NCBI GenBank assembly: GCA_003144275.1
Contig: NJBF01000044.1
Coordinates: forward strand, 1-26,493
DNA from: Candidatus Heimdallarchaeota archaeon B3_Heim
GTDB lineage: Archaea > Asgardarchaeota > Heimdallarchaeia > Hodarchaeales > Hodarchaeaceae
Direction of reading: 5' to 3'
DNA: 26,493 nucleotides
The notes below the pieces were generated by a model that worked only from the letters and a program-made list of their open reading frames with translations, did no database searches and was not told where the DNA came from. This document shows, one piece after another, positions 2,582 through 17,736 of this stretch. Positions within the stretch are counted from its first letter, which is position 1, and each line of letters begins with the position of its first letter. The translations under genes were made by a program, and so were the position numbers.

Positions 2582-2606
2582 TGTGGATATTTATGGATGA
2601 ATTATA

Positions 2607-3596
2607 ATGAAAGTACTCTTTTGCCATCGTGTAACCCCTGTTTTACGTGATCATTACCGTTCCTCATTACCTGAGGGTATCGAGCTCATTTTCCCAAATG
2701 ATTTATCTGATTCTGAACTGCAACGGTATGCTCCAGATATTGAAGTGGCTGTGGGGTATAAATTTACTAAAGAGTTCTTAGATCAAGCACAAAAGCTCCG
2801 TCACATCCAGATTCCCTGGACGGGAGTTGAGACCCTGGATTTTGAATTAATGAAGCGGTATTCAAATCTCACTATCTCGAATTCCCACTCCAATAGTTTA
2901 GCAATAGCTGAGCATGCAGTCGCTCTCTTTCTCTCCGCTGCGAAAAAGATAGTTTACCGTGATTCAGTAATGCGAAAAGGAGACTGGTCAACACGGTACA
3001 ATGATGTAACCTCACAATGGTTGTCCAGAAAGACTCTTGGAGTCATTGGTTATGGGGCTATAGGTAGTAAAGTCGCTCGTATGATGAAGCAGGGATTCAA
3101 CATGCAGATTTACGCTATTAAGAGACATCCTACAACAGATCAAACGGAAGAGGTAGATTTCATTGGAACACTTGATTCTTTAGATTATGTAATAAAAAAA
3201 TCTGATTACCTTCTGATTGCATTACCTTTGACCCCTGAGACAAAAGGATTAATAAGGGAAAGAGAACTAGCCCTACTGAAACCGAATGTTGTTTTGGTAA
3301 ACATTGGAAGGGGAGATGTTATTAATGAAAAAGATTTGTATGATTTCATTGAGAAATCCGAATTAGCAGCTGTAGGGTTGGATGTATGGTATAATTACCC
3401 AAAAGATCGAAAGAAGCCTTTGGTGAAGCAAAATTCTCCTTTTGAAGAGTTACCATATTTAGTAATGAGCCCTCATTCTGCATTTAAGGTGGAATCACGA
3501 GAGATTCCATTTACAGAAGATATCATTAGTAATCTCAAGGCTATTTACAATCAGGAAGAACCTCAAAATCGGGTTAATATCAACGAAGAATATTGA
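2607..3596 (+). CDS. D-isomer-specific 2-hydroxyacid dehydrogenase family protein
   Basis: SNSHSNSLAIAEHA, GVIGYGAIG (Rossmann), LPLTPETKGLI, NIGRG, GLDVWYNYP and SPHSA motifs. Confidence 0.9.
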   Translation: MKVLFCHRVTPVLRDHYRSSLPEGIELIFPNDLSDSELQRYAPDIEVAVGYKFTKEFLDQAQKLRHIQIPWTGVETLDFELMKRYSNLTISNSHSNSLAIAEHAVALFLSAAKKIVYRDSVMRKGDWSTRYNDVTSQWLSRKTLGVIGYGAIGSKVARMMKQGFNMQIYAIKRHPTTDQTEEVDFIGTLDSLDYVIKKSDYLLIALPLTPETKGLIRERELALLKPNVVLVNIGRGDVINEKDLYDFIEKSELAAVGLDVWYNYPKDRKKPLVKQNSPFEELPYLVMSPHSAFKVESREIPFTEDIISNLKAIYNQEEPQNRVNINEEY

Positions 3597-3655: not shown

Positions 3656-4795
3656 TTAGATGGTTAAATTTTTCTCCGTTTTTCCATCGAAAATGTGAAC
3701 CCGACTCATATCAAATACTAAATCCATTCTTTGGTCAACACTAGCAGTTGTAGCTGTGTTCACACGAGCATTAAACTCAATCGAGTCAACTAGCACTGAC
3801 AAAAATATGTCAGAGCCGTAATTTTCTCGAACCATTACTTTTACGGCAACAATATTCTCTACACTTGGGTTTAGAGCAAATTCTCGATCCTCAATATCCT
3901 CTGGACGAATACCCAAGATTATATTGTTTACATCAGTGGCATTTTTCAAAATGCTGGTTACCATTGATTCAGGGAGATTTAGACTAAAGACAGGTGTAAC
4001 AAAATCTGATCCATCTAATTTTCCTTCAATGAAATTCATAGAGGGTGATCCAATGAATCCAGCAACAAACTTGTTGACAGGCTTATCATATACCTCTTCA
4101 GGTGTGCCAATTTGCTGAAAAATACCTTCATGCATACATGCAATACGATCACCTAATGTCATAGCTTCAGCTTGATCGTGCGTTACATAAATGGTTGTGA
4201 CCCCAAGATCTATTTGTAAACGTTTAAGCTCAGTACGCATATGAGAGCGCAATTTTGCATCAAGATTGGACAATGGTTCATCCATCAGGAAGACTTTTGG
4301 TTGTCTAACAATTGCTCGTCCCATTGCAACTCGTTGCTGTTGCCCTCCTGATAATTCAGTCGGTTTTCTTTTGAGGAGATCCTCTATTTTTAAAATGCGT
4401 GCTGCAACCTTGACTTTTTCATCAATCTCATCGGGCCGAAACTTACGTGGTTTCGCCTTAGGATCATCTACATCAACTATACTCTTTCGTGCGCGTAATC
4501 CAAAAGCGAGATTGTCATACACAGTCATATGTGGATAAAGAGCATAATTTTGAAAAATAAATGCGATATCTCGGTCTTTCGATGGCATAATATTGACAAC
4601 TTTATCTCCGATATATACTTTCCCACTCGTAATTTCTTCTAAACCAGCAACACATCGCATAGCCGTACTTTTTCCGCATCCCGAAGGGCCTACAAATACT
4701 ACTAGTTCTTTGTCTGCAATATTGATATTGATATTGTCCAAAACAAGTTTGTCTCCAAAGCGTTTGGTTACATTTTCCATTTTGACTTCTGTCAT
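3656..4795 (-). CDS. Sugar ABC transporter ATP-binding subunit (MalK/MsmX/UgpC family)
   Basis: Walker [11 protein letters not shown]-loop [10 protein letters not shown], signature LSGGQQQR, Walker [12 protein letters not shown]-loop VTHDQ and a C-terminal TOBE-like region. SD-like AAGGAG lies 8 nt upstream. Confidence 0.96.
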
Positions 4796-4818: not shown

Positions 4819-7125
4819 TTAACCTTTCAAACCTTCAACTGATACTCCTTTTTTAATATAATCTTGTGCAAGGAACAATATAACAAATATTGGAAGCACA
4901 ATTACTGTTGCTAATGCCAGAATTACTCCTGCCTGTTCTTGTAATTCAGCATTAATATGATAAATTCCCAAAGGAAGCGTTCGTAATAAGGGGGCAAATT
5001 CGCTCTGATCTAGCAATAAAAGAGGCCACATGAATGCATTCCAATTACCGATAATATTAATGATGACCATTACAGAAATCACAGGAATAGATAAGGGTAA
5101 AACAATTTTTCTGAATATTTCAAATTCACTATATCCATCAACTCTGGCTGCATCCAAATAATCATCAGGAATACCCCGCATAAATTCAGCACAGAGGAAA
5201 ATACTGAATGGTTGGATTAAAAACGGAAATATTACACCTAAAAGGGAACCTACAAATCCCAGACGATTAAGTTCTAAATATAGGGGAATTACCTGCACAT
5301 ATGGGGGTACCATTTGAATCGCAATGATTAGAGTAAAGAGTAGTTTCCTACCAATGAAATTTCTTTTTGCTAAACAATACCCTGCCATAGCAGAGAATAT
5401 TACTAAAAACCCTGTTACGAAGAGAGCGGTTACAATTGAATTGAATAACCATGTTACTACTTGATATTCCAATGTTTCATATGGAGCTGGTACAAGGCCA
5501 AATATTTGTGCATAATTCCTAGTTGTAAATGGGTCAGGTATCAGTCCCTGTTGCGCAAAATCAACTGAATTTTGAGCGTTTGTCTGGATACTATTCTTAA
5601 TCATCCATATGAACGGTACAACCATGATGATGGCAATAGCTACTGCTGTTCCATTTATTAAAATGCTACTAGCAATTATACTCCGACTTCTGCCTTGACG
5701 AACTTGAATAATACCCCATGCTATAGCTGCTAAACTCACTCCTATGAAAGTCAATAATATTCCTAAAGATAGAAACGAAGCGAATGAGTCGGTCTGCATC
5801 TCATAAGAATCACCGAATAATCTATTGTAATTCTGTGGATCAAAGACATAAACAAATACAAATAATACAAAAAATAATACTGCCACTTTGAGGAAGTTAG
5901 AATGTCTTCTCAACCCAATTTTCCAGTCAGTTAAGGAATCCATCGATAGCTCGTACATGATAAGATAAACAACATAGAGTAGCAGAAAAATGATGAAGAG
6001 GAGTAAGGTTATCCAGAAAGCAGGTTGAATGGCACCCAAGATTGAAATATCACTTGGTCTAATAGGAATCATTCCATTCGAGATTTGTCGAGCTGCATTG
6101 ACTATTATATCAAAACTATCTTTGATCAGTGTTATCAATTCACCAGAAAAGTCTAAGGGATTATGGATCATATAACCCATAATCCAAGGGAGATTCAATA
6201 GGAAAAATGTTATACCAGAACTGGAAGATTGTAATACTAAAGTGTCTAGTAGTGGTATACCGAATATTAGTAAGAAAATGAAATAAACCACTTGTTTAAT
6301 GTTCATTTTCTCTTTATATTTAATTTTGATAACATCTAGAACCGTACGGTCAGAGATCTGGGAACTAAAGATGACCCATATTACTGCAATAGGAACTAAT
6401 GCACTAATTATCCCGATCATTAACAGATTTGGGTCTATATTGGTGAATGAGGTTATAGAATAAACATCATCACTGAAATGAGACGTTAATGAAATTAGAA
6501 AGATGAAGATAAGCGTTACAAATATGATGGTTTTCTTCCAAGATATTAGTTCAACATATGATAATCTTGTATTTTCACTCTTCTCTTGTTGTAGATTATC
6601 AATATACCAATAACACGCTAGAAAGATAGCTACAATAGTGCCTATCCACAGGTAGTCAACTGTTAACGGGATGAATAATAGTATGATAATGAGTTTCTTT
6701 GGAGAAAAAAGTTTGAAGAAATTAGATCTATTCACATAATTTACTATGAAATAAATAACAAAGAGAATGATTAGGAGTGGGATAATTATATACAAACCTG
6801 TTAAGAAATATCCTACCTCTGATATTATTTCTAAATTAAATTGTATGAGTTGAGAATAGAAGTCCAGCATATTTTGGAAGAATACGATAGTACTGTCGAC
6901 ACCTGTAGTAATCAAAGTCGTAAATGTTCTGAACTGGTTGACATAAAAGCTATTTAGTGCGACCACCCATTTCATAACGGATTGGTCTGTTAATTGGCGT
7001 AAATTATCTAATCTGGTAGATGAGATCGGGATGACCAAAGCGGCAATAAAGGCTAAAAAAAGCATTAACCGGCGTTTAATATAAATGAAGTCAAGAATAC
7101 TTGCTTGTATTTTGTTTCTATCCAT
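4819..7125 (-). CDS. Carbohydrate ABC permease, MalG-type, with a ~475-aa N-terminal membrane extension
   Basis: The C-terminal ~290 aa has NSIVTAL..AGYCLA, QMVPPYVQVIPLY, the EAA loop IPDDYLDAARVDG and WNAFMWPL. The N-terminal part is hydrophobic and multi-TM. Confidence 0.9.
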   Translation of the reverse strand: MDRNKIQASILDFIYIKRRLMLFLAFIAALVIPISSTRLDNLRQLTDQSVMKWVVALNSFYVNQFRTFTTLITTGVDSTIVFFQNMLDFYSQLIQFNLEIISEVGYFLTGLYIIIPLLIILFVIYFIVNYVNRSNFFKLFSPKKLIIILLFIPLTVDYLWIGTIVAIFLACYWYIDNLQQEKSENTRLSYVELISWKKTIIFVTLIFIFLISLTSHFSDDVYSITSFTNIDPNLLMIGIISALVPIAVIWVIFSSQISDRTVLDVIKIKYKEKMNIKQVVYFIFLLIFGIPLLDTLVLQSSSSGITFFLLNLPWIMGYMIHNPLDFSGELITLIKDSFDIIVNAARQISNGMIPIRPSDISILGAIQPAFWITLLLFIIFLLLYVVYLIMYELSMDSLTDWKIGLRRHSNFLKVAVLFFVLFVFVYVFDPQNYNRLFGDSYEMQTDSFASFLSLGILLTFIGVSLAAIAWGIIQVRQGRSRSIIASSILINGTAVAIAIIMVVPFIWMIKNSIQTNAQNSVDFAQQGLIPDPFTTRNYAQIFGLVPAPYETLEYQVVTWLFNSIVTALFVTGFLVIFSAMAGYCLAKRNFIGRKLLFTLIIAIQMVPPYVQVIPLYLELNRLGFVGSLLGVIFPFLIQPFSIFLCAEFMRGIPDDYLDAARVDGYSEFEIFRKIVLPLSIPVISVMVIINIIGNWNAFMWPLLLLDQSEFAPLLRTLPLGIYHINAELQEQAGVILALATVIVLPIFVILFLAQDYIKKGVSVEGLKG

Positions 7126-7130
7126 GGTAA

Positions 7131-9053
7131 TTACGCTCCGTTAATATCCTCCTGTGGAAATAAAAAGGAAGCAAACTGCTGTTGTTTAAGGAAAGGGATA
7201 ATATAACGTGCTAATAGCATTAAAATAGCAATAATCAGCATTAGCAAGCCAAGAATGCCTGAAGGTATGAACCATATTTGTGTTGAACCAGCTCCTGATT
7301 GTGTAATAGTATTATACCCGTTGAAAAGATAAAATGGGACAACACAAGAAATGAAAATACCAGTTATTCGGAGATCACTTACATCATTCTCAAGTTGTTT
7401 GTATTTCAAAAGAGAGTAGATGATATAATATGCCAAACAGATAAACGCTAAGACAAGGAAAAGTAAATCATAAGTAAGCCATTTCACAGTGAATCCTAGT
7501 GATTTTGCAGAAAGGCCAAAACGATTTGATGGAATAGAAAATAAAATAGCTAACAGAGAAAATAGAGCAAATCCCTTTAAAACATTTTTTATTTCAACCC
7601 GTCCAAGTAATCCAAGAAACGCTGTCATTCCAAAAATGAAATAACCAACTGTTGATGCAAAGGTCATAATTGTCGGACTAGCATAATTAGCGATAAGATA
7701 TATGGCTAATGATTGGTCTCCACCAAATTGAGCAATATTTAAACCGTAGAATTCTTGAAAAATTTGCCAACCATTAATCAGTTCTAAAATCATAACTACT
7801 CCAAGTGGACCTTTGAGCATTGGTAATGTAATATTCTTGAATTTAGACCACCCACCATGACCATCAATTTCAGCTGCTTCATAAAGTGACGCAGGAATCG
7901 ATTTTAAACCCGCTAATAATATTAATACATCAAAACCTACTCTTCTCCAAATACTCATCAGTGCTACTGATTCTATCATTGCTATCGAAAGCCAATTGAG
8001 GCTTTCTCCAACTACATTGGCAGGGACAACTCCTAATGTTACTATATTTAGTATATAGTACAGAAAATCAAGAATTGGAGCGATTAGGTGAAAAATGGCT
8101 GATAAGAGTCCATCAAGAGAAAAAACCACTCTCAACCAGATAACAGAAACGACAAGTACTGAAGTGACCACAGGCATATAGAAAATTGTTGTGTAAGTAT
8201 TCTCTCCTTTCAATAATTTGTTATTCAACAAAACTGCGAGAGCTAATGAAAGTATTATTACACCGGGAACGAAAATGATTACGAAGAAGATATTATTATC
8301 GAGCGCATTTTGGAATGATGTAGCAGGCGTAGTTTGGGAGAAAAGTTGAAGATAATTGTCTATCCCAACAAAGATTGGATCTTGTTTTTGCAATCCTCCG
8401 AGAATTGCATGAATTGTCCAAAGAAGAGGGTCTTGAGTGTAATCAACAGGAATAAATGCACGGGATAAATCTCCTGCAGGATAGGCGAACAATGTGATAT
8501 AAAACCCTCTGATGATAGGAATAATGTAAGTGAATATGAGAAAAATCAACGCTGGGATAATCAAAATGTACGGTAACTTATTTTTTCTCAATTCTCCGAC
8601 AAAACGCTCTCTCAGACTTAAATCTTGTTCTTTCGATCGCGTATTTCGGAATGCAACTATCGCGAGTAGACCTAAAGGTAATGTAAGAATACCTCCAATT
8701 AACCATGCGTTCCTCCCTTTCATAACACCAGTTGAATCCTTTTGAAGGCTTTGAAGACTTCCAAATAGAAGTAACAGACAACCAGCTATTACCAATAACG
8801 TTATCGTCAGATTGGCTGTAGCCTCTGCCCCAACTATCGAAATACCAAAGAAAAACCAATGAGTGACCTCAGGGACAATAGATACAAATGCTGAGAGGCC
8901 CAGAATTTCGCTCCAGCCGTAGATAAAATAACCTGGAGTAAAAAAATAGTTATCACTCACAAATAGAAAGAAGATAGCAAGTATTAAGGGGATAATTCCA
9001 TTTATAAGCGCAAATCGTTGAGGTTTTGATTGTGATTGTTCCCAGATCATCAT
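7131..9053 (-). CDS. Carbohydrate ABC permease, MalF-type, with N- and C-terminal membrane extensions
   Basis: PYILIIPAL, FVGIDNY, IFYMPVVTS and the EAA loop IPASLYEAAEIDG..WSKFKNITLPML. Confidence 0.9.
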   Translation of the reverse strand: MMIWEQSQSKPQRFALINGIIPLILAIFFLFVSDNYFFTPGYFIYGWSEILGLSAFVSIVPEVTHWFFFGISIVGAEATANLTITLLVIAGCLLLLFGSLQSLQKDSTGVMKGRNAWLIGGILTLPLGLLAIVAFRNTRSKEQDLSLRERFVGELRKNKLPYILIIPALIFLIFTYIIPIIRGFYITLFAYPAGDLSRAFIPVDYTQDPLLWTIHAILGGLQKQDPIFVGIDNYLQLFSQTTPATSFQNALDNNIFFVIIFVPGVIILSLALAVLLNNKLLKGENTYTTIFYMPVVTSVLVVSVIWLRVVFSLDGLLSAIFHLIAPILDFLYYILNIVTLGVVPANVVGESLNWLSIAMIESVALMSIWRRVGFDVLILLAGLKSIPASLYEAAEIDGHGGWSKFKNITLPMLKGPLGVVMILELINGWQIFQEFYGLNIAQFGGDQSLAIYLIANYASPTIMTFASTVGYFIFGMTAFLGLLGRVEIKNVLKGFALFSLLAILFSIPSNRFGLSAKSLGFTVKWLTYDLLFLVLAFICLAYYIIYSLLKYKQLENDVSDLRITGIFISCVVPFYLFNGYNTITQSGAGSTQIWFIPSGILGLLMLIIAILMLLARYIIPFLKQQQFASFLFPQEDINGA

Positions 9054-9270: not shown

Positions 9271-10800
9271 TCATCGACGTTTGCGAGCAGCAAAGAGGGC
9301 AACACCCAAGATAGCGAGTGTACCAACTAAAAGCTCGAAACCAGGTGCACTAGTACCAGGTTCTTCGATCTCAACATATGGACCACCAAGATAGTAGCAT
9401 TGAATATCAGCAGCCATCTTGTCAAGGGCTAGTTGAGCTTGTTCCGTATACCATGCATCAGAGTAACCTTTGCCATATTTGACAGCAAGAAGGGCATCAC
9501 GATATCCAGGCATCATGACAGTCTCATGGACTGTAAGCCATTCAGGATGTTGTTTACCCCATGGGAATGCATATACTTGACTTTCAATATGGGTTACAAA
9601 GTTTGCTCGTTCACCGTGACCAGCTTCAGTAAACCAAGGATCGCTCTTTAGTGATTGACGAACTGGAATTCTCCACGAGCTACCAAGCCAGTTTTTGACG
9701 GTTTTTATCTGATTTTCATCATCTAAAAGCCATTGAGCAAGTTCGACTGCATCAGCAAGTTCAGTTGCATTAGCTGTAACGGTTGGAACTAATGAAATTC
9801 CACCACCTGTGATGGTTGAACGTACGCCATCTGAAGTTTTTGGCATAGGAACTGCCATAAAATCAGCCATATCTAATCCACCTTCTCCTCCGAAGATGCC
9901 TGTACCCCAAGGTCCACAAAGAACCATACTTACATTTCCAGCTTTGAAATGATCGTTAGCTTGACCACCACCGTCAGTATCGACAGTTTCAGGAACCCAA
10001 CCTTCACCTTTAAGCTTTAAGTAGTTAGCAAATCCTTCAACACTAAGAGAACCATTTGTACCATACATATCATCGGTACCCCAGCTAAAGACTGAGGCAG
10101 GGTCCTCTGAAGAGTCGATGAAGTTATCAGTCGAGGCAAACATGTAATTCATGTAAGCCAAATCGCTTTGTAACATGCCTACCATTGCGTAAGGAGTTTT
10201 TCCAGCATCTGCCAATGTTTCAGCGGCAGACATAAATCCTTCCATTGTGTCTACATCGGCTGCTGTCAAACCAACTTCTGTGAAGTCAGCCAGGTTGATA
10301 TAGGGGAGAATGGATTGTCCAAAGAATGGAAGTGCATAAATATCGTCTCCTGATCCATCACCATTTGCTTTGTCAAGAATGGACCACCAGCCTGCGGGGA
10401 TATCTGCTTGCCAAGTTTCGCGCTCGCCGCTCCATGCAGCGATGTCGTCAGAGAAGTCATACCAGATACCGAACTCTGCAAATTCTGTGTACCAATCCTG
10501 AGTTGCTAGGATAAGGTTTGGGTAATCACCAGCGAGAAATCGTGCAACAAGTGCGTCACGATCGCTAGGTCCTCCTCCAACAGCTGTATAAGTGAAATTA
10601 TACTTAGTTCCAAGTGTGGAGTGATTTCCTATCATTGATCTAATGATCTTGCCTCGTTCATGATCAGTACCCCAGGGCATAACAATTTCAAAATTTGTTG
10701 CTGCTGTAGCTTGGGGCTTTGCGGTTGTTTGTGCAAAACCGAACGATGCTAAGAGTATTAAACCAAAAGTTAAGGCAAAAAAAACATTTGTTTTCTTCAT
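9271..10800 (-). CDS. Sugar ABC substrate-binding protein with signal peptide and C-terminal PGF-CTERM-like anchor
   Basis: N-terminal MKK plus a hydrophobic stretch. SBP_bac_1-like motifs IYALPF, FKAGNVSMVLCGPW and GGGISL. The C-terminus is APGF + TM + RKRR. ATG 10800 is preferred over TTG 10815 because GGTGA lies 8 nt upstream. Confidence 0.88.
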   Translation of the reverse strand: MKKTNVFFALTFGLILLASFGFAQTTAKPQATAATNFEIVMPWGTDHERGKIIRSMIGNHSTLGTKYNFTYTAVGGGPSDRDALVARFLAGDYPNLILATQDWYTEFAEFGIWYDFSDDIAAWSGERETWQADIPAGWWSILDKANGDGSGDDIYALPFFGQSILPYINLADFTEVGLTAADVDTMEGFMSAAETLADAGKTPYAMVGMLQSDLAYMNYMFASTDNFIDSSEDPASVFSWGTDDMYGTNGSLSVEGFANYLKLKGEGWVPETVDTDGGGQANDHFKAGNVSMVLCGPWGTGIFGGEGGLDMADFMAVPMPKTSDGVRSTITGGGISLVPTVTANATELADAVELAQWLLDDENQIKTVKNWLGSSWRIPVRQSLKSDPWFTEAGHGERANFVTHIESQVYAFPWGKQHPEWLTVHETVMMPGYRDALLAVKYGKGYSDAWYTEQAQLALDKMAADIQCYYLGGPYVEIEEPGTSAPGFELLVGTLAILGVALFAARKRR

Positions 10801-10887
10801 ATCAGTTTTCACCAAATATTGGTTTCTATAATTGATCCTTATAGTAAGGAAAAACTTACATAAGGATGATCTTTGTCACTGTACTAG

Positions 10888-10903
10888 TTTTAAAAAACTT
10901 TTC
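10888..10903 (-). promoter_or_regulatory. BRE/TATA promoter of the ABC operon
   Basis: Minus strand GAAAAG-TTTTTTAAAA, about 90 nt upstream of the SBP start. Confidence 0.5.
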
Positions 10904-11187
10904 CCACCCGTATCGTAGATATGGGTTTAAAGAATAGCTTTGTTAATGATTTAGTTACTTTATATTCATATCCCAGTAATTTCTATTTATTTATTGGCGG
11001 AGTTAGGATTTCTAGGTGTTTTCAACAGATAAACTATCGATATAGATTATACTTCCTTTCTGTTTACTAAGATTAACTTCAGATAACTAGGAGCAGTATA
11101 TAGTCGTTAGTGAAGTAATAACAATTTGAGATTGTCAAATATATTGATAGAAATTAAGTGGAGAATTTGCAAAATAACTTTTCTGGT

Positions 11188-11202
11188 AAAAAAAGTTTAA
11201 AG
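11188..11202 (+). promoter_or_regulatory. BRE/TATA promoter of the mggS-like gene
   Basis: AAAAAAAG-TTTAAAG, about 55-65 nt upstream of the start. Confidence 0.5.
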
Positions 11203-11266
11203 AATTGACGAATTTCGGCTCTTTATAGTAATAAATTGTTCTTATGAACTCAATGTGTGGAAGAAT

Positions 11267-12622
11267 ATGAATATAGCAATGGTTCACTTTAGAGTGGGAG
11301 AACTTGACGGCGTTTCATTAGAAATGGATAAATGGAAGAAAGTACTTGAGGAAAAATTTAAACATGAGGTAATTTACCTCGCAGGATCCTTAGGACGAAG
11401 TGATGGCATTTCTATATCCGAATTTTCCTTAGATTTTGTTCCAGGCCAAGAAATTAGGAAAGCTGCTTTCTCTTCTCCGCTGAATAAATCCCAAGAAAAG
11501 GCTTTAGAAGTCGAAATCAGAACTCTTATATATGAAATTAAGCCTAAAATTCTCAAATTCATTGAAGAATACAACATTCAGTGTTTTATTCCAAACAATA
11601 TGTTTAGTTTACCCTTGAATATTCCTGCCTCGCTTGCCCTCTTTGAAATTCTTCAAGAAACAGGAATTCCTACAATTAGTCACAATCACGATTTTACATG
11701 GGAACGTACTAGCTATAACCCTAGTTGTTCTCTCATTAAGGATTATCTCGACAAGTATTTTCCTCCCAAACTTCCCAATATAAGACATGCTGTAATTAAT
11801 TCCATTGCTAAAGATGTTCTTAGCGATAAAAAGAGCATTGAATCAGTTGTTGTCCCCAATGTCTTCTATTTCGAAGAACCGGATTGGGTTAAAGATTCTT
11901 TCAATTCTGATGTAAGAGCTACTCTGAATATTTCCAATAGCGATATTATTATCTTGCAAGCAACTCGACTTGTAGATCGAAAAGGTATAGAATTAATTAT
12001 TGATGTTATTGCAAGGTTAAATACAAAAGAATACAGGAAGCAGTTATCCTCCAAACCATTGTATGATGGTAGACGATTTACGAATAATGACAAAATATTA
12101 ATAGTCATGCCTAATTTAGTAGAAGATATCACTTACAAGAATAAGTTGGAAAAGAAATGTAATGAGCTGAGTGTCGAATATCGATTCTGTAACCCTTTCT
12201 TCGCCCATCAACGATCTGAAGTGGATAATGAGAAAAAAATCTACAATCTATGGGACATTTATTCTCATTCAGATTTCGTCTCATACCCAAGCTTGGTAGA
12301 AGGATGGGGAAATCAATTTTTAGAGGCTGTCAAGGCAAAATTGCCAATCATTCTCTATGAATATGATGTATATATCAGAGATATTGGCCCTCTCGGATTC
12401 TCAACAATCTCTTTGGGGTCTGACCTCCAAAAATCTGCTGAACATGGATTGGTTACTGTTTCCGATGAAAGAATCAAGCAAGCTGCTGATGAAACGGTTC
12501 TAATACTCCAGGATAACACGTTAAGAGAAAAGATGGTAAACAAAAATTTCGAGATTGGGTTGAAAGAGCTGTCTATAACTGCTCTTGGGAAGTATCTCAA
12601 TTTATTACTTTCTTCGCTTTAG
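11267..12622 (+). CDS. mggS: GT4 glycosyltransferase, mannosylglucosylglycerate synthase (MggS)-like
   Basis: IAMVHFRVGELDGVSLEMDKWKKVL, HNHDFTWER, QATRLVDRKGIEL and YPSLVEGWGNQFLEA match my recollection of the Thermotogales MggS family. The track start GTG 11255 is an alternative. Confidence 0.72.
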   Translation: MNIAMVHFRVGELDGVSLEMDKWKKVLEEKFKHEVIYLAGSLGRSDGISISEFSLDFVPGQEIRKAAFSSPLNKSQEKALEVEIRTLIYEIKPKILKFIEEYNIQCFIPNNMFSLPLNIPASLALFEILQETGIPTISHNHDFTWERTSYNPSCSLIKDYLDKYFPPKLPNIRHAVINSIAKDVLSDKKSIESVVVPNVFYFEEPDWVKDSFNSDVRATLNISNSDIIILQATRLVDRKGIELIIDVIARLNTKEYRKQLSSKPLYDGRRFTNNDKILIVMPNLVEDITYKNKLEKKCNELSVEYRFCNPFFAHQRSEVDNEKKIYNLWDIYSHSDFVSYPSLVEGWGNQFLEAVKAKLPIILYEYDVYIRDIGPLGFSTISLGSDLQKSAEHGLVTVSDERIKQAADETVLILQDNTLREKMVNKNFEIGLKELSITALGKYLNLLLSSL

Positions 12623-13755
12623 TTGCTACCCTTAGATTGGAAAAGTGTCTTGAAGTATTTTTCGAATTTCAACATTTGGCTTTTCCGATCATGTTGATCA
12701 ATAACTAGTCGTCTAGCATTCTCTCCCATCTGAATATAGTGTTTTTGATCCTGCCAAGTACTTAAAATTGCATTAACTAGATTATCTACATCACCTGGAG
12801 TAACGAGATATCCAGTATATTTGTTTCTGACCACTTCTTGTATTCCTCCAATATCTGAGGCAACAACAGGGATTTTCAACGAAAAAGCTTCCAAAATAAC
12901 ATTAGGAAGGCCTTCTTTCGAAATACTGGGTACTACTAAGATATCACAAGTCGTAAAAATTTCAAGAGTATTCCTTGTAAAAGGAATAAACGTGACATTT
13001 GGCTGCATATTCAGTTTATTTACTTTTTCTTTTAGCAGTTTTTCATCTGGGCCATCCCCAACAATTAATAGATGAATATTGGGAATTTCATTTTTTCTGA
13101 TAACATTTATGGCTTTGAGTAGATGGATTTGCCCTTTTCTATGTTCTAGAGAGCCGATACATCCTATAACAGGTTTGTACGCAGATAGTTTGTCTTTTAA
13201 AAGTGATTCTTTTGTTTCTTCTTTACTCCCAAAGTATTTCAAATCAATTCCTTGGTAGAGAAGTTTTATTTTTTCCTCTGGTATCCTGTATTCGGAAATT
13301 AAATGATTATAAATCGTCTTCGTAATTGCAATTGTTCTAGCATTAGCTAACTGATCAGACAGATAATATTGGTTTTTGTAACTAGGCACTATTGTTCCTG
13401 TTTTCGTCACCAACGTCACTTGAAGGGCTAATTCTTTGATGCATTTCGCAGCAAATAATGAACAATGAAACTTTTCTCGTGGCGGGTGAACTGTGCATAC
13501 TGCAATATCTGAGTCTGTTAAAGCATTTCCCCAAATTGTTACATACTTTTTTGCTTGAGTAATGATACCTGAAAAATCATAAGTTACTAGCTTAACTGTC
13601 TTAGAAATTTTTTGGCATTCCTTGGCAATCCACCCATTTCTGGGAGTAATAACCGTGATTTTCCACCCCTGTCTAAGAAAAAATACAATTGCATCCATTA
13701 CCCACAGTTGTGTACCTCCATGTAACTTAGTGTCTTCAATGAACGTAATCTGCAT
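12619..13755 (-). CDS. GT4 (GT-B) glycosyltransferase
   Basis: HGGTQLWV, IGSLEHRKG and PSISKEGLPNVILEAFSLKIPVVASDIGG (EX7E motif). Confidence 0.9.
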   Translation of the reverse strand: MQITFIEDTKLHGGTQLWVMDAIVFFLRQGWKITVITPRNGWIAKECQKISKTVKLVTYDFSGIITQAKKYVTIWGNALTDSDIAVCTVHPPREKFHCSLFAAKCIKELALQVTLVTKTGTIVPSYKNQYYLSDQLANARTIAITKTIYNHLISEYRIPEEKIKLLYQGIDLKYFGSKEETKESLLKDKLSAYKPVIGCIGSLEHRKGQIHLLKAINVIRKNEIPNIHLLIVGDGPDEKLLKEKVNKLNMQPNVTFIPFTRNTLEIFTTCDILVVPSISKEGLPNVILEAFSLKIPVVASDIGGIQEVVRNKYTGYLVTPGDVDNLVNAILSTWQDQKHYIQMGENARRLVIDQHDRKSQMLKFEKYFKTLFQSKGSN

Positions 13756-13931
13756 AATTCTTTGGGTTTCATTATGAATTATTTTAATTATAGTTCACTT
13801 CTTTAGAGCCTCAAGTAATTCGAAATTAAACATCAACTTCATATTTGGAGTAGAACAGTTTCAAATTGTTTACCAAATAGACCTTTCCTAAACAGAATTA
13901 CCGTTTTTCTGATTTAAAAAGCAATAATAGG

Positions 13932-15812
13932 ATGTATACAGTTTTGGTATTTTTTCCCTTGGAAGTAAGGACAAGAATAGAAAGAAAATTAGAAATTCTT
14001 TATGGTGACCAATCGAATGTTCTATATAAGGATATTGAAAGTCTTCTAGTAAGTTATACCCACAGTCATGCAATCCACCAGTTGGAAAAGTCGGAAGAAG
14101 GGTCTTTAAAGGGAAAATATTCCAAGGGTGACATTATTCTTAATACTTATGCTGATTCTATTCAGGGTGATGAAGGTACTCCTTTAGAAGTTCTCAATCG
14201 CTTTTCTACAAACTTTTTGAAAAAAACTATCAATGGTTGTCATATTCTACCCTTTTACTCTTGGGATACAGACAGAGGATTTTCTGTTTTAAATTACTAC
14301 AATGTTGACCCTAGAAATGGTACATGGGAAGGATTCAGTGCACTGAAAGAAGTTTTTGATGTATTGATGGTTGACTGTGTACTCAACCACGCATCTCTCG
14401 GTAATCCTATTGTTCAAGAAGCGCTCATTGGTAATCCTGTATACCAAGATTTTGTAATTATATTTGACGAAAAAAGCAAACCTAGCAAAGAAGATCAGCT
14501 CAAAATAACTCGTGCCCGTCCCTATCCAGTTTTAACTCAGTATTTCGTTGCTGATGTAGGTAATAATCGCTTTGTTACCCTTAATAAACCTCACAATGGA
14601 AAAATTATTGGGAAAGGTTGGGTGTGGACGACATTCAGTCGTCCAAATAATCCTGATGGATCTGTTGCGACAAGACAAGTCGATCTTAATTTTCAGAATC
14701 CTAGAGTATTTCTAGAAATTCTTAGAATTATCTTATACTACATCTCAAAGGGAGCAAGTTGGATTCGTCTTGATGCGATAGGTTATTTGTGGAAGAAAAT
14801 TGGGACTAGTTGTCTTCACCTTCCAGAGACCCATTTATTTATTGAAATACTTGCAGAGATCTTTAAATACTTAGAACCCGGCAATACTGTCCTTATCAGT
14901 GAAGTTAATGAACCTCAAGATCGTGCTCTACAGTATCTTGGATCAAGCACCGTCCACAAATCCGATATGATATATTTATTCACCCATTTTCCACTTGCGG
15001 TCCATGCAGTGCTTACTGGATCGTCAAAATATTATCAAGAATGGCTTCCGTCTCTCAAAGAAGCCAAGGGTCGACTATTTGTAAGTGTTTTAGGAACCCA
15101 TGATGGAATGGGAATGAAACCCATTGGTAATTGGCTACCCGACTCTGAAAAGCATAAATTACAGAAAATTTTACTGCAAGAACATGGAGCGCTCGCGAAC
15201 TACGCGAAACTACCTGGAGGGCAAGAAATTGTCTATGAATTGTGTTCTACCCCTTGGAATTTTATTAATAAGGAAAATTCTTCAGAAAGTTTTGAGCTTC
15301 AACTAAATCGTTATCTTGCAGTCTTTGCATTAGGATTAATGATCAAAGGTGTTCCCTCAATCTATATTAATGGATTATTGGGGATTAGTAATAACAAGAA
15401 TCCTCTAGATGAGAATCGATCAATAAATAGAGAAATTCTTTGGGAGAAGGAGATAACTTCCACACTACAGAATGACGGATCACAAATGTTCAGAGTATTG
15501 GATAAAATATTGGAATTAATTTCAATACGTAAGAGAGAATCGGCGTTTGATCTAGATGGATCTTTTGAAGTCTTAGCTCTTAATGAAAGTGTCGTATCAG
15601 TGCTTTTGTCATCTTCTACCCCTACAAATAAAATTATTGCTCTAGTAAATGTATCCGATTCTGATAAATCTTTCGTTGTTGATTGTTCTCAATTAGGATT
15701 GCATACATCTGTTTTGACAGATTTAATCACTAATCAAACGTACAATATTCCTGCTCACGGAGAAGAACTTGGAATTACCTTATCCCCTTATCAAATAAGT
15801 TGGCTCCGATAA
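13932..15812 (+). CDS. GH13_18 phosphorylase, probable glucosylglycerate phosphorylase
   Basis: TYADSI, HILPFY, VLNH, WTTFS..QVDLNF. Catalytic residues in RLDAIG, SEVNEP and THDG. Acceptor loops read E-x-N and YE rather than the sucrose phosphorylase E-x-H and YQ. Confidence 0.8.
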   Translation: MYTVLVFFPLEVRTRIERKLEILYGDQSNVLYKDIESLLVSYTHSHAIHQLEKSEEGSLKGKYSKGDIILNTYADSIQGDEGTPLEVLNRFSTNFLKKTINGCHILPFYSWDTDRGFSVLNYYNVDPRNGTWEGFSALKEVFDVLMVDCVLNHASLGNPIVQEALIGNPVYQDFVIIFDEKSKPSKEDQLKITRARPYPVLTQYFVADVGNNRFVTLNKPHNGKIIGKGWVWTTFSRPNNPDGSVATRQVDLNFQNPRVFLEILRIILYYISKGASWIRLDAIGYLWKKIGTSCLHLPETHLFIEILAEIFKYLEPGNTVLISEVNEPQDRALQYLGSSTVHKSDMIYLFTHFPLAVHAVLTGSSKYYQEWLPSLKEAKGRLFVSVLGTHDGMGMKPIGNWLPDSEKHKLQKILLQEHGALANYAKLPGGQEIVYELCSTPWNFINKENSSESFELQLNRYLAVFALGLMIKGVPSIYINGLLGISNNKNPLDENRSINREILWEKEITSTLQNDGSQMFRVLDKILELISIRKRESAFDLDGSFEVLALNESVVSVLLSSSTPTNKIIALVNVSDSDKSFVVDCSQLGLHTSVLTDLITNQTYNIPAHGEELGITLSPYQISWLR

Positions 15813-15836
15813 AAACTGTTCCTAGGCTGATATAAA

Positions 15837-17042
15837 TTGAAAAAACCAGTAATTGTTGTTCCTTCTTATTGGTCTCAAGGACCAATAACAGAGACTGATG
15901 TTGTATATGACCATCCAACAGATCTGCTAAATCCCTGTGAAACCCTCTCGAAAACTTTGAAGTCATTTGAGAAAATCACTGGTAAGTTTGATGTATTAGT
16001 GATAGGTTGTCCCACTAGAACTTCAATAGGAAAAGACATGGACAGATCAGTATTAGAACTAATAAAGAGCTCCACCCCCTCGTATCGAATTAAGTATTTT
16101 GGTTCTAAGGAATACAACATTCTAAAATCATTTATTGAGGAAAAACTCTAATTAAAATTAGCAAAGTTGATATCAAATAAAGGATATGGAAATGTTCGAA
16201 ATCTGTGTTTGCTTCTTCCCCATATACTTGATTACGATGTTGCTCTTCTCATTGATGATGATGAAATAGTTACAGATCATTTGTTTTTGCAAACTGCCAC
16301 TGAGTTCATTGGTTCTCAAGTGAAGAATAAGATTTTAGGTGTGGTTGCGGGGTACTATGTGAATGCTGATGGGTCGATTTTTCTTGATGAATCACAAACT
16401 CTCTGGTGGAATCTTGTTTGGGAAAAGGAAAAATTGATGAATGAGGCTTTTCGGATTATCACTGACTCTAAATCTGAACGTTTAGTTGATACACCGTTTG
16501 CCCTAGGTGGAAATCTGGTCATCTATAGGAAATGTTGGGAACAAGTACCATTCGACCCCTTAATTACGAGAGGAGAAGATATGGATTACTTGCGTAGCGT
16601 TAAATATTTTGGTTTTGAAGCAAAACTAGATCGATCGCTTTCGATAAAACATGAGCCTCCAAATGTTTCTACATCATATAAAATCAAATTTCGGCAGGAT
16701 ATCCATCGCTTTCTATATTCTAAATATAAGCTAGAGCATATGAAGGTTGATCCATCCGAATTCGATCCCTATCCAGGATACTTTCTTCGTCAAACCGAGG
16801 GAAAAGTCATACTGACCGAGCTTCTCTACAACATTTTCCAAAACAAGGAAGCATTAGTTGAGTTAGAGGATGTTACTCAATTTTTAGACCATATGAAGGA
16901 TATTGATTTTTATTTCAAAGAGATACATGAGGAATGTCGTAACACAAGTGAGAAGTATTTTGAGTTCCAGAAGAATTGGAAAACTTTAATGGTAAATCTA
17001 ACCTCACTAAAGATTCCATCAGATACAGCAGCAAAAATCTAA
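15837..17042 (+). pseudogene. GT-A fold (GT2-like) glycosyltransferase interrupted by one in-frame TAA at 16149-16151
   Basis: Track ORFs 15837..16151 and 16167..17042 share a frame, and the read-through is FIEEKL*LKLAKLISNKGYGNVRN. The 5' part has VIVVPSYW; the 3' part has LIDDDE, FALGGNLVI, RGEDMDY and IKHEPP. Confidence 0.75.
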
Positions 17043-17058: not shown

Positions 17059-17736
17059 TTATCCGTAAATTAAATAAGAGAATTTTGTTACTCGGAAGAA
17101 CAACAAATTTTGGTTGAATAAGAAAAGAATTAGAAAAATGATATATGTTAAATTAACTGGATCGATAGCGGAAATTGCATTCTGAAATATGATCAATGAA
17201 GCTGATTCTAAAAACCAATAGCCCGTAACGAGTGTACCCAGAATCAAGTGAATAGCAATCCGTTTATTGAATAGGATAGCATTGATATGATTCTCCCTCA
17301 GTATTATTTTCCAGTAGATAATTATCCACATAACCAATAAGGAATAAAAGAGTAACCACGACGCACTTACTAAAGTAGAAAATAGAATGAAGATTTCAGG
17401 AGATACTAACGGGGTAGGAGGGAGAAGAATCTTGATTCCAAGGAGAATGCTAATAATTAAATTTACTCTAGCCCAAATGATGAGATCAGAAACAGAGTAG
17501 TCTTTTAAGTCGAGTACGGGTGGATGAGCTCCTAGAACGCGGTATAATCCGAATGTAAAACCGCTGAACCCTAGTAATAATCCCCATTGCATGATATATT
17601 GTAAGAATGCCATTAAGGGGGGTGCTATAATTATAAATCTTAATAGAATCAGGGAGAGGCGATAGATCTCGGTTAATAAAAGAAGACTCGAACTCATGTA
17701 AATTGTAAGTCGAATCCAAGCAATATTACTTCTCAT
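17059..17736 (-). CDS. Hypothetical multi-pass membrane protein (~6 TM)
   Basis: A 225-aa ORF filling the gap between genes, made of alternating hydrophobic segments. No family recognised. Confidence 0.7.
   Translation of the reverse strand: MRSNIAWIRLTIYMSSSLLLLTEIYRLSLILLRFIIIAPPLMAFLQYIMQWGLLLGFSGFTFGLYRVLGAHPPVLDLKDYSVSDLIIWARVNLIISILLGIKILLPPTPLVSPEIFILFSTLVSASWLLFYSLLVMWIIIYWKIILRENHINAILFNKRIAIHLILGTLVTGYWFLESASLIIFQNAISAIDPVNLTYIIFLILFLFNQNLLFFRVTKFSYLIYG

What the first reader, a model, noticed from the sequence alone, without database searches (positions are those of the whole stretch)
9271..17042. Candidate archaeal glucosylglycerate/mannosylglucosylglycerate osmolyte system with its own importer
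Seen: an MggS-like GT4, a second GT4, a GH13_18 enzyme with E-x-N/YE acceptor motifs and a GT-A gene are clustered. The mggS-like gene is divergent from a sugar ABC operon across a shared intergenic region. Known: glucosylglycerate phosphorylase interconverts Glc-1-P + D-glycerate and GG, and MggS adds mannose from GDP-Man to GG. MGG is described from bacteria (Petrotoga, Rhodopirellula), whereas archaeal GG synthesis is known through GpgS/GpgP. Inference: a phosphorylase-plus-MggS route in an archaeon. The two extra glycosyltransferases might extend the product into an undescribed glycosyl-glycerate, and the ABC system might scavenge such solutes.
Basis: partly seen in the sequence, partly recalled or inferred. 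Interest (0 to 1): 0.72.

Follow-up and report, generated by a model that had tools for sequence, protein, structure and literature searches.

The report
Asgard sugar-glycerate uptake and processing locus
An Asgard archaeon carries a conserved gene cluster, of a type common in bacteria, that pairs a sugar importer with enzymes related to those that make and break the stress-protectant sugars glucosylglycerate and mannosylglucosylglycerate. The genes are real, but whether the cluster builds, salvages or eats these compounds is not settled.

Summary
The window carries an MggS-family GT4, a second BshA-like GT4, a GH13 phosphorylase-like enzyme and a 401-aa GT-A protein. They face a CUT1 sugar ABC importer across a shared intergenic region.

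- **Conservation:** the whole set, plus a 225-aa membrane protein, is syntenic in Hodarchaeales and Thorarchaeota, and rearranged in a Promethearchaeota MAG.
- **GH13:** it is 32% identical to E. coli YcjM, a glucosylglycerate phosphorylase. It falls in a well-supported, uncharacterised sister clade of the canonical enzymes, with SEVN instead of (T/S)ETN but with the loop-A Tyr-Glu kept.
- **GT4:** it belongs to the MggS family but scores 369 bits against a cut-off of 640. It is not in the Thermotogae clade that passes the cut-off.
- **GT-A "break":** a single TAA splits the gene in this assembly. Contigs from four public metagenome runs read TCA there, so the gene is probably intact.

The MggS-like/GH13 pair is not an archaeal peculiarity. 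In bacteria of many phyla it sits in LacI-, RpiR- or CdaR-linked operons with ABC importers, glycerate kinase, GH38 mannosidases and phosphomannomutase. This supports the glycerate and mannose link.

Verdict: a new variant of a known kind, of moderate interest.

The parts
3656..4795 (-). MalK-type ABC ATPase, last gene of the importer operon
   Evidence: ABC_tran plus OB_MalK plus TOBE. Its orthologues sit in the same place in Asgard loci at 72-81% identity.
4819..7125 (-). MalG/UgpE-type permease of 768 aa, with a membrane extension of about 490 aa at the N-terminus
   Evidence: BPD_transp_1 at residues 580-762. UgpE/MalG/GlcU models match residues 494-768. Orthologues of 780-840 aa occur.
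7131..9053 (-). MalF/UgpA-type permease of 640 aa, with extra membrane segments at both ends
   Evidence: UgpA/MalF/GlcT models match residues 223-447. Orthologues of 647-875 aa occur.
9271..10815 (-). Surface-anchored sugar-binding protein of the importer. The likely true start is the ATG at 10800.
   Evidence: Orthologues carry SBP_bac_1/SBP_bac_8. There is a weak match to maltodextrin-binding protein 1elj. The C-terminus is PGF + TM + RKRR, with PGF-CTERM/Heimdall-CTERM at E 0.002-0.008.
10903..10925 (.). Conserved imperfect palindrome in the divergent intergenic region, a candidate operator. A GTTTAAAGAAT box occurs twice, at 10925 and 11195.
   Evidence: This is the best-conserved block in the alignment of the intergenic regions of four Hodarchaeales loci. 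The direct repeat is family D4. Its function is inferred, not shown.
11267..12622 (+). MggS-family GT4 glycosyltransferase (the ORF is open from the GTG at 11255)
   Evidence: NF041101 at 368.6 bits over the full length, below the cut-off of 640. The fold is GT-B/GT4: HepE, BshA, PimA and TreT at Z 24-29. The EX7E motif is invariant. It sits in a monophyletic Asgard clade within the family.
12619..13755 (-). Second GT4 glycosyltransferase (GT4b), BshA-like
   Evidence: Glycos_transf_1 at E 1e-41. Its best solved relatives by sequence include BshA, at E 1e-15 to 1e-18. It is conserved in Asgard clusters and lies next to MggS-like genes in some bacteria.
13932..15812 (+). GH13 phosphorylase-like enzyme, in the sister clade of glucosylglycerate phosphorylase
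   Evidence: 32% identity and 280 bits against E. coli YcjM. Motifs are RLDA / SEVN / HD / VYE. In the tree, LONG+Asgard has 100/99 support and is sister to canonical GGaP at 96/88, rooted on sucrose phosphorylases.
15837..17042 (+). 401-aa soluble GT-A protein (GT2-like / MtdL-like fold). It is split in this assembly by a TAA at 16149-16151.
   Evidence: Same frame on both sides of the stop. It is 97% identical to intact P0122, which has Ser at the stop. Four runs read C at 16150. The model has pLDDT 91. Fold matches are MtdL at Z 21, MPGS at Z 17.6 and GT2 enzymes.
17059..17736 (-). 225-aa multi-pass membrane protein of no known family that travels with the cluster
   Evidence: It is present beside the cluster in Hodarchaeota, Thorarchaeota and Promethearchaeota loci at 38-60% identity. 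It has no Pfam or NCBIfam hit and no informative Atlas hit.

Best explanation
This is an accessory locus for uptake and intracellular turnover of glycosyl-glycerate-type glycosides, meaning glucosylglycerate and mannosylglucosylglycerate or close relatives.

**Proposed steps**
1. A surface-anchored binding protein and a CUT1 ABC transporter bring the glycoside in.
2. The MggS-family GT4 interconverts the mannosylated form and glucosylglycerate. It most likely runs in reverse, as TreT does in the Thermococcus trehalose/maltose transporter cluster, to give GDP-mannose plus glucosylglycerate.
3. The GH13 enzyme interconverts glucosylglycerate plus phosphate with glucose-1-phosphate plus D-glycerate.
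4. The BshA-like GT4 and the GT2-like GT-A protein are accessory enzymes that remodel or rebuild related glycosides.

**What is shown:** the gene identities at family level, conserved synteny, the phylogenetic positions, and the genomic company these families keep.

**What is inferred:** every substrate, the direction of flux, and the roles of the two extra transferases and the 225-aa membrane protein.
For: - **GH13 position:** it groups with characterised glucosylglycerate phosphorylases (E. coli YcjM, plus a Meiothermus taiwanensis relative of the characterised M. silvanus enzyme) to the exclusion of sucrose phosphorylases, with 100/100 support. It keeps the catalytic residues and the loop-A Glu that the GH13_18 review gives as a GGaP mark.
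- **GT4 position:** it is a full-length member of the MggS family, and the above-cut-off Thermotogae clade is nested in that family. By the literature, the only characterised MggS is the T. maritima enzyme (PMC3736172).
- **Neighbours of MggS-like genes in the 82 loci with a match** (mostly bacterial): permeases in 46, binding proteins in 34, GH13 in 34, MalK in 32, LacI in 23, GH38 mannosylglycerate-hydrolase-like in 14, glycerate kinase in 9, CdaR in 8 and GH130 in 8. All 9 glycerate-kinase loci also carry the GH13. In four Vibrio loci a phosphomannomutase-type gene travels with it; in V. barjaei it directly follows the GT4.
- **Bacterial GH13 neighbours:** almost all carry the exact GGaP motifs TETNVPH and PYE(L/M)N; two Atribacterota copies read TQTN.
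- **Thermotogae MggS:** above-cut-off MggS is the last gene of an SBP-permease-permease-MalK operon in 5 of 8 loci examined.
- **Meiothermus taiwanensis:** its GGaP-type phosphorylase lies in a LacI-SBP-permease-permease-ATPase-glycosidase operon.
- **Woesebacteria:** an MggS-like GT4 is divergent from a long-clade GH13. The pair therefore holds across both GH13 clades.
- **Asgard conservation:** importer and enzymes are conserved together.
Against: - No substrate has been tested for any protein of this locus or its clades.
- The GH13 is in an uncharacterised sister clade. It has Val where GGaP has Thr, and EPQ where GGaP has VPH. Other long-clade members sit beside sugar-acid genes and Opp-type transporters rather than MggS-like genes.
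- Three transferases in one cluster fit synthesis better than breakdown.
- The characterised T. maritima MggS was assayed in the synthetic direction (PMC3736172).
- No glycerate kinase lies in the Asgard cluster. A MOFRL-type kinase is on another contig.
- The TreT precedent is recalled from memory and was not checked here.
Confidence: 0.5

Rival explanations
1. This is a biosynthetic osmolyte route. The GH13 runs in reverse (glucose-1-phosphate plus D-glycerate gives glucosylglycerate), or the BshA-like GT4 makes glucosylglycerate from an NDP-glucose. The MggS-family GT4 then adds mannose from GDP-mannose. The GT-A enzyme extends the product. The importer only salvages leaked solute.
For: - Three glycosyltransferase-fold genes are conserved in the cluster.
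- No GpgS above cut-off was found in the 94%-complete genome, so another source of glucosylglycerate would be needed.
- The T. maritima MggS makes mannosylglucosylglycerate from GDP-mannose and glucosylglycerate, and the same phosphorylase-plus-MggS route was hypothesised for R. baltica (PMC3736172).
- GT4b resembles BshA, which glycosylates a small hydroxy-acid.
- In two Anaerolineae loci a GT4 sits directly upstream of the MggS-like gene with no GH13 nearby. It clusters with GT4b in L043 and matches it at 41% in L079.
- The organism comes from marine sediment and cold-seep samples.
Against: - The R. baltica phosphorylase made no glucosylglycerate, and its MggS homologue showed no activity.
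- The bacterial versions of the module are in repressor-controlled importer operons with hydrolases, glycerate kinase and phosphomannomutase.
- The GH13 was found in only 4 of 201 sampled Asgard genomes, all of one genus. That is odd for a core osmoadaptation system.
- By general knowledge, phosphorylases usually run in the degradative direction in cells.
Confidence: 0.25
2. The locus handles a different alpha-glucoside or mannoside, not a glycerate conjugate. Examples would be a glucosyl sugar-acid, a glucosyl-hydroxyacid or an oligosaccharide. The resemblance to MggS and GGaP is then only at family level.
For: - Both key enzymes fall outside the characterised clades.
- The GH13 acid/base loop differs from GGaP at three positions, and the change is conserved across the whole long clade.
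- Long-clade GH13 genes in Spirochaetes lie beside enolase-superfamily, altronate-dehydratase-like and GFO/IDH genes.
- The GT-A family lies between two GH130 beta-mannoside-phosphorylase-like genes in an Atribacterota locus.
- GH13_18 already holds at least one clade of unknown substrate.
Against: - The MggS-like partner is the same family that accompanies canonical GGaP in 34 loci.
- The pair recurs with the long clade in Woesebacteria and Asgard.
- The loop-A Glu that marks GGaP is kept.
Confidence: 0.2

Closest known systems
Rhodopirellula baltica mggS-like / mggB / sucrose-phosphorylase operon-like cluster (Cunha et al. 2013, PMC3736172)
   Same: An MggS homologue is clustered with a GH13 sucrose-phosphorylase-like gene. 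A non-phosphorylating phosphorylase-plus-MggS route to mannosylglucosylglycerate was hypothesised there.
   Different: It is bacterial. That phosphorylase was active on sucrose and made no glucosylglycerate, and the MggS homologue was inactive when tested. The paper describes no importer, second GT4 or GT-A gene in that cluster.
Characterised glucosylglycerate phosphorylases (E. coli YcjM, Meiothermus silvanus, Spirochaeta thermophila; GH13_18, EC 2.4.1.352) and their importer-linked operons
   Same: The fold and catalytic residues are shared, as is the loop-A Tyr-Glu. Identity to YcjM is 32% over the full length. The genes are likewise adjacent to CUT1 ABC importer genes.
   Different: The window enzyme is in a sister clade about 60 residues longer. 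It has (S/G/A)EVNEPQ instead of (T/S)ETNVPH, and WDTDR instead of (Y/W)(S/T)SDD. Its activity is unknown.
Thermotoga maritima MggS and the Petrotoga mobilis non-phosphorylating pathway (GgS + MggS)
   Same: It is the same GT4 family, with full-length matches and an invariant EX7E motif. The above-cut-off Thermotogae MggS genes are also embedded in ABC importer operons.
   Different: The Asgard proteins score 369-376 bits against the model's cut-off of 640 and form their own clade. The GgS-like partner seen in some Thermotogae loci is a different GT-A family from the 401-aa one here.
TreT in the trehalose/maltose ABC transporter cluster of Thermococcus litoralis (recalled from memory, not checked here)
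   Same: A GT4 Leloir transferase is encoded with an ABC importer. It is used reversibly to process the imported disaccharide. TreT is a structural neighbour of the MggS-like model at Z 24-25.
   Different: The substrate is different, there is no phosphorylase partner, and the similarity is at fold level only.

Membership tests
Mannosylglucosylglycerate synthase (MggS; NCBIfam NF041101 equivalog) | Whole-protein score at or above the curated cut-off of 640 bits | tested here: not met
   The score is 368.6 bits over profile positions 1-428 of 431. Thor and Loki orthologues score 376 and 370 bits. Thermotogae members of the equivalog clade score 648-765 bits.
Mannosylglucosylglycerate synthase (MggS; NCBIfam NF041101 equivalog) | GT-B fold of family GT4 with the EX7E motif | tested here: met
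   The model has pLDDT 92. GT4 structures match at Z 24-29 over residues 1-451. E345 and E353 are invariant in 21 sequences.
Mannosylglucosylglycerate synthase (MggS; NCBIfam NF041101 equivalog) | Placement inside the above-cut-off Thermotogae clade (the model's equivalog class, which also passes in the T. maritima control genome) | tested here: not met
   The Asgard sequences form a separate clade (SH-aLRT 99). The above-cut-off clade (100) lies elsewhere among bacterial MggS-like sequences. This is the same family but not the same orthologue group.
Mannosylglucosylglycerate synthase (MggS; NCBIfam NF041101 equivalog) | Transfers mannose from GDP-mannose to glucosylglycerate | not testable with these tools
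   This needs an enzyme assay.
Glucosylglycerate phosphorylase (GH13_18, EC 2.4.1.352) | GH13 catalytic nucleophile Asp, acid/base Glu and transition-state Asp | tested here: met
   RLDA, SEVN and HDG align with the same motifs of YcjM and 33 other family members.
Glucosylglycerate phosphorylase (GH13_18, EC 2.4.1.352) | [quoted passage not shown] | tested here: not met
   The window has SEVN, and the Asgard and long-clade consensus is (S/G/A)EVNEPQ. Canonical members have TETNVPH. Glu and Asn are kept, and Thr is replaced by Val.
Glucosylglycerate phosphorylase (GH13_18, EC 2.4.1.352) | Glu in loop A where other GH13_18 clades have Gln (PMC7178133) | tested here: met
   The window has VYE, aligned with PYE of YcjM and the other canonical members.
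Glucosylglycerate phosphorylase (GH13_18, EC 2.4.1.352) | Placement inside the clade of characterised enzymes | tested here: not met
   It lies in the sister clade. LONG+Asgard has 100/99 support and canonical GGaP has 96/88. Together they have 100/100 support against sucrose phosphorylases.
Glucosylglycerate phosphorylase (GH13_18, EC 2.4.1.352) | Phosphorolysis of 2-O-alpha-glucosylglycerate and no activity on sucrose | not testable with these tools
   This needs an enzyme assay.
CUT1-type carbohydrate ABC importer | A binding protein, two MalF/MalG-type permeases and a MalK-type ATPase with an OB/TOBE tail, in one operon | tested here: met
   Searches identify the parts. Orthologous operons appear. 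The binding protein itself is recognised only through its orthologues' Pfam hits and a weak 1elj match.
Canonical archaeal glucosylglycerate route (GpgS + GpgP) | A glucosyl-3-phosphoglycerate synthase gene in the genome | tested here: not met
   The best NF010496 match in the own genome is 38.6 bits against a cut-off of 262. The genome is 94% complete, so absence is not proven.
GT2-type inverting GT-A glycosyltransferase (for the 401-aa protein) | GT-A fold with a DxD motif and a downstream acidic ED motif | tested here: inconclusive
   D140-D141-D142 and R245-G246-E247-D248 are invariant. The fold matches the MtdL mutase (Z 21), retaining MPGS (Z 17.6) and many GT2 enzymes (Z 14-17) about equally well. 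The Pfam GT2 hit is only E 0.022.

The most novel reading that the evidence does not exclude
MggS-family GT4 enzymes that sit in importer operons may work in the breakdown direction, either by TreT-like reversal with GDP or by phosphorolysis. Together with glucosylglycerate phosphorylase, or with its uncharacterised EVNEPQ sister clade, they would form a widespread two-step pathway. That pathway would conserve bond energy while consuming mannosylglucosylglycerate-type solutes, in more than a dozen bacterial phyla, in CPR bacteria and in Asgard archaea. It would make these 'rare' compatible solutes a common currency in sediments, and would mean 'MggS' is misnamed for most of its family.
Probability: 0.3. 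Interest if true: 0.65.

Novelty: new variant of a known kind. Interest (0 to 1): 0.45.

Why it matters
Glucosylglycerate and mannosylglucosylglycerate are treated as rare stress solutes of a few bacteria. In archaea only the GpgS/GpgP route is known.

Here the enzyme pair linked to these solutes turns out to be common and importer-linked across many bacterial phyla. It is also present, in a divergent form with extra transferases, in several Asgard lineages from marine sediments.

If the substrates are confirmed, three things follow:
- Asgard archaea would be shown to take up and process other microbes' compatible solutes.
- The large uncharacterised sister clade of glucosylglycerate phosphorylase would gain a function.
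- The physiological role of the MggS family could be tested.

The phosphorylase clade is also of practical interest, because GH13_18 enzymes are used to make glycosidic osmolytes.

Tried and rejected
- **MggS-like, sequence search of solved structures:** no hit at E <= 0.01.
- **GT-A C-terminal part, same search:** only chance hits.
- **GT-A family:** no Pfam or NCBIfam family. I considered that it might be the GgS/GpgS-like partner seen in Thermotogae. A direct comparison with that 397-aa GT-A gave only 29 bits. Fold matches to GpgS (Z 13.4) and MGS (Z 13.0) rank below MtdL, MPGS and GT2 enzymes. The question stays open.
- **In-frame TAA as recoding or a true pseudogene:** rejected as the main reading, because contigs of four runs from three studies read TCA. 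These are contigs, not raw reads, so a minor allele is not excluded.
- **MAG contamination by a bacterial contig:** rejected, because the full cluster recurs in several Asgard MAGs and the binding protein has an archaeal PGF-type anchor.
- **SBP against E. coli YcjN:** no similarity.
- **Above-cut-off MggS genes in Thermotogae:** searches limited to the five genomes behind my loci, and to the family of one of them, found none. The class-wide search found them.
- **Papers not held:** Fernandes 2010 and Franceus 2017. Their content is cited only through PMC3736172 and PMC7178133.
- **Prior reports:** searches for glucosylglycerate or sucrose phosphorylase together with Asgard or Heimdallarchaeota gave nothing relevant by title or abstract; the two papers returned were not opened.
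- **225-aa membrane protein:** Atlas and Pfam searches gave no usable lead.
- **Not attempted:** a complex prediction and an RNA-level expression check.
Full report
**What is in the window**

The 26.5-kb window is a whole contig of a 3.95-Mb genome that is 94% complete. Its proteins are closest to those of Hodarchaeales/Heimdallarchaeota MAGs. Public runs holding near-identical DNA are marine-sediment and cold-seep metagenomes.

The genes relevant to the finding are as follows.
- **Minus-strand operon:** a binding protein (9271-10815), two oversized permeases (7131-9053 and 4819-7125) and a MalK-type ATPase (3656-4795).
- **Divergent from it, across 10816-11266:** an MggS-like GT4 (11267-12622).
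- **Then:** a second GT4 on the minus strand (12619-13755), a GH13 (13932-15812), a GT-A gene (15837-17042) and a 225-aa membrane protein on the minus strand (17059-17736).

The GT-A gene is one 401-aa frame, interrupted in this assembly by a single TAA at 16149-16151. A 97%-identical relative is intact and has Ser at that position. The other family members returned as full-length hits are mostly about 375-420 aa.

Contigs assembled independently from four public runs, covering three studies, all read C at 16150, which gives TCA. The stop is therefore most likely an assembly error or a minor allele. I treat the gene as functional.

**The cluster is conserved**

Three Hodarchaeota MAGs and a Thorarchaeota MAG have the same genes in the same order. 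A Promethearchaeota MAG has the importer, the membrane protein, GT4b and the MggS-like gene together. Its GH13 and GT-A homologues are recorded on a contig of the same length, 393,993 bases.

The distribution is patchy. The GH13 was found in only 4 of 201 sampled genomes of the phylum, all in the window's own genus. This is an accessory island.

**The GH13**

- Its best solved relatives are all GH13_18 phosphorylases, at about 110 bits.
- Against E. coli YcjM, annotated as and reported to be a glucosylglycerate phosphorylase, it gives 280 bits and 32% identity over the full length.
- The GH13_18 review names two sequence marks of glucosylglycerate phosphorylase: a (T/S)ETN motif at the acid/base loop, and a Glu in loop A.
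- The window has SEVN and VYE.
- Homologue searches show that the Asgard proteins belong to a distinct set of proteins, mostly about 600-660 aa, at 40-47% identity. The named members come from Spirochaetaceae, Woesebacteria, Deltaproteobacteria and Bdellovibrionales, with one Trimastix transcript. The six sequences I read all carry AEVNE(P/E)Q and (I/V)YE(L/I/M/V)C.
- In a careful tree rooted on three plasmid-borne sucrose phosphorylases, canonical glucosylglycerate phosphorylases form one clade (96/88). The long clade plus Asgard forms its sister (100/99). The two together have 100/100 support. Asgard is monophyletic within the long clade (100/100).

The enzyme is therefore a close cousin of glucosylglycerate phosphorylase whose substrate has not been determined.

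**The MggS-like GT4**

- It matches the NCBIfam MggS model over its whole length, but at 369 bits against a cut-off of 640.
- A survey of 151 Thermotogae genomes shows two score classes. One is at 648-765 bits in 24 genomes. A much larger one is at about 370-470 bits.
- In a family tree, the high-scoring clade is a long-branched group nested among bacterial MggS-like sequences. The Asgard sequences form their own clade (SH-aLRT 99).
- The predicted structure is a standard GT4 GT-B fold. Its neighbours include BshA, PimA and TreT.
- Membership of the family is clear. Orthology with the characterised enzyme is not.

**What company these genes keep**

This is the most informative result. I fetched 80 loci encoding relatives of the GT4 from species-representative genomes, added two Asgard loci found earlier, and clustered the neighbours.

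| Neighbour of the MggS-like gene | Loci (of 82 with a match) |
|---|---|
| ABC permeases | 46 |
| Binding protein | 34 |
| GH13 | 34 |
| MalK | 32 |
| LacI regulator | 23 |
| GH38 similar to mannosylglycerate hydrolase | 14 |
| Glycerate kinase | 9 |
| CdaR regulator | 8 |
| GH130 beta-mannoside phosphorylase-like | 8 |

- All nine glycerate-kinase loci also hold the GH13.
- The bacterial GH13 neighbours almost all carry the canonical TETNVPH and PYE(L/M)N motifs. They are true glucosylglycerate-phosphorylase types.

Examples:
- **Caloranaerobacter:** GH65, LacI, SBP, permease, permease, MggS-like, GH13.
- **Vibrio barjaei:** LacI ... MalK, permease, permease, SBP, GH13, divergent from MggS-like followed by phosphomannomutase.
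- **Meiothermus taiwanensis:** LacI, SBP, permease, permease, ATPase, a trehalase-family glycosidase, then the phosphorylase.
- **Above-cut-off MggS of Thermotogae:** it is the last gene of an SBP-permease-permease-MalK operon in five of eight loci examined.
- **Woesebacteria:** an MggS-like GT4 (34% identity) is divergent from a long-clade GH13.

The GT4/GH13 pair is therefore a conserved functional unit across both GH13 clades. Its surroundings tie it to glycerate and mannose. Those surroundings are the typical dress of uptake and catabolic operons.

**The accessory genes**

- **GT4b:** by sequence it is closest to BshA-type enzymes. It appears beside MggS-like genes in some bacteria.
- **The 401-aa GT-A family:** it has no Pfam or NCBIfam model. 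It folds with high confidence (pLDDT 91). It resembles the GDP-sugar mutase MtdL (Z 21), a mannosyl-3-phosphoglycerate synthase (Z 17.6) and many GT2 enzymes.
- **Where the GT-A family recurs in bacteria:** in one uncultured bacterium it lies in a single operon with SBPs, permeases, MggS-like, GH38, a GpgS-like GT-A and GT4b. In an Atribacterota locus it lies between two GH130 genes.
- Their chemistry remains open.

**Mechanism**

I commit to an uptake-and-turnover reading at about 0.5.
1. The importer brings in a glycosyl-glycerate.
2. The GT4 removes or exchanges the outer mannose. The precedent, recalled from memory, is the reversible GT4 TreT, which is encoded inside the Thermococcus trehalose/maltose transporter cluster.
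3. The GH13 splits glucosylglycerate into glucose-1-phosphate and glycerate.

In its favour:
- Three transferase-fold genes are conserved in the cluster.
- No GpgS was found in the genome.
- The only assayed MggS works in the synthetic direction.

A third possibility, at about 0.2, is that the divergent GH13 clade acts on another glucoside. That would fit the sugar-acid genes beside its Spirochaete members.

**Comparison with what is known**

- The phosphorylase-plus-MggS idea was published for Rhodopirellula baltica in 2013. There the phosphorylase proved to be a sucrose phosphorylase and the MggS homologue was inactive.
- Importer-linked glucosylglycerate phosphorylases are known from E. coli ycj.
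- New here are the presence of the module in Asgard archaea, the uncharacterised sister clade of the phosphorylase, and the fixed association with two further transferase-fold genes, a novel membrane protein and oversized permeases.
- I found no paper in the held library that reports this.

Noticed in passing
window 16149-16151: The in-frame TAA that splits the GT-A gene is not seen elsewhere. Logan contigs of four public metagenome runs (three studies) read C at 16150, giving TCA (Ser), as does a 97%-identical intact homologue. This is a likely consensus error or minor allele in the MAG.
   Followed up: yes
window 10903-10925 (also 10925-10935 and 11195-11205): An imperfect palindrome (CCCA..AT..T-ATCG-A..AT..TGGG type) is the best-conserved block of the divergent intergenic region in four Hodarchaeales loci. 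It is preceded by a TTTAAA-like box. An 11-nt GTTTAAAGAAT box occurs twice. Together these are a candidate shared operator and promoters.
   Followed up: partly
window 17059-17736 (-): A 225-aa multi-pass membrane protein with no family assignment travels with the cluster in Hodarchaeota, Thorarchaeota and Promethearchaeota loci. In the last it lies between GT4b and MalK.
   Followed up: partly
window 4819-9053 (-): Both ABC permeases are two to three times the usual size (768 and 640 aa, with the conserved cores at residues 494-768 and 223-447). Orthologues in other Asgard lineages are even longer, up to 875 aa.
   Followed up: no
protein P0346: A transcript-derived protein labelled Trimastix, a metamonad eukaryote, is a full-length member (42% identity) of the long GH13 clade and carries the AEVNEPQ motif. 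It could reflect gene transfer to a eukaryote or contamination.
   Followed up: no
window 21736-26006 (-): A tight operon holds an FGGY kinase, a nickel-pincer LarA-family putative hexonate epimerase (NF052594, 611 bits, above its cut-off) and a 6-phosphogluconate dehydrogenase. This is a sugar-acid route next to the glycoside locus.
   Followed up: partly
window 1376-3596 (+): A reductive-dehalogenase-family protein (TIGR02486, 221 bits) and a D-2-hydroxyacid dehydrogenase lie just left of the importer. They keep that position in the four Hodarchaeota/Heimdallarchaeota loci but not in the Thor or Loki loci. The dehydrogenase could act on glycerate/hydroxypyruvate, but its best models are generic.
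   Followed up: partly
L075 (Vibrio barjaei) 19791-21128 and 18193-19794: This Vibrio locus holds a second MggS-like gene (395 bits). It is preceded by a 533-aa protein of no known family that recurs in three loci.
   Followed up: no
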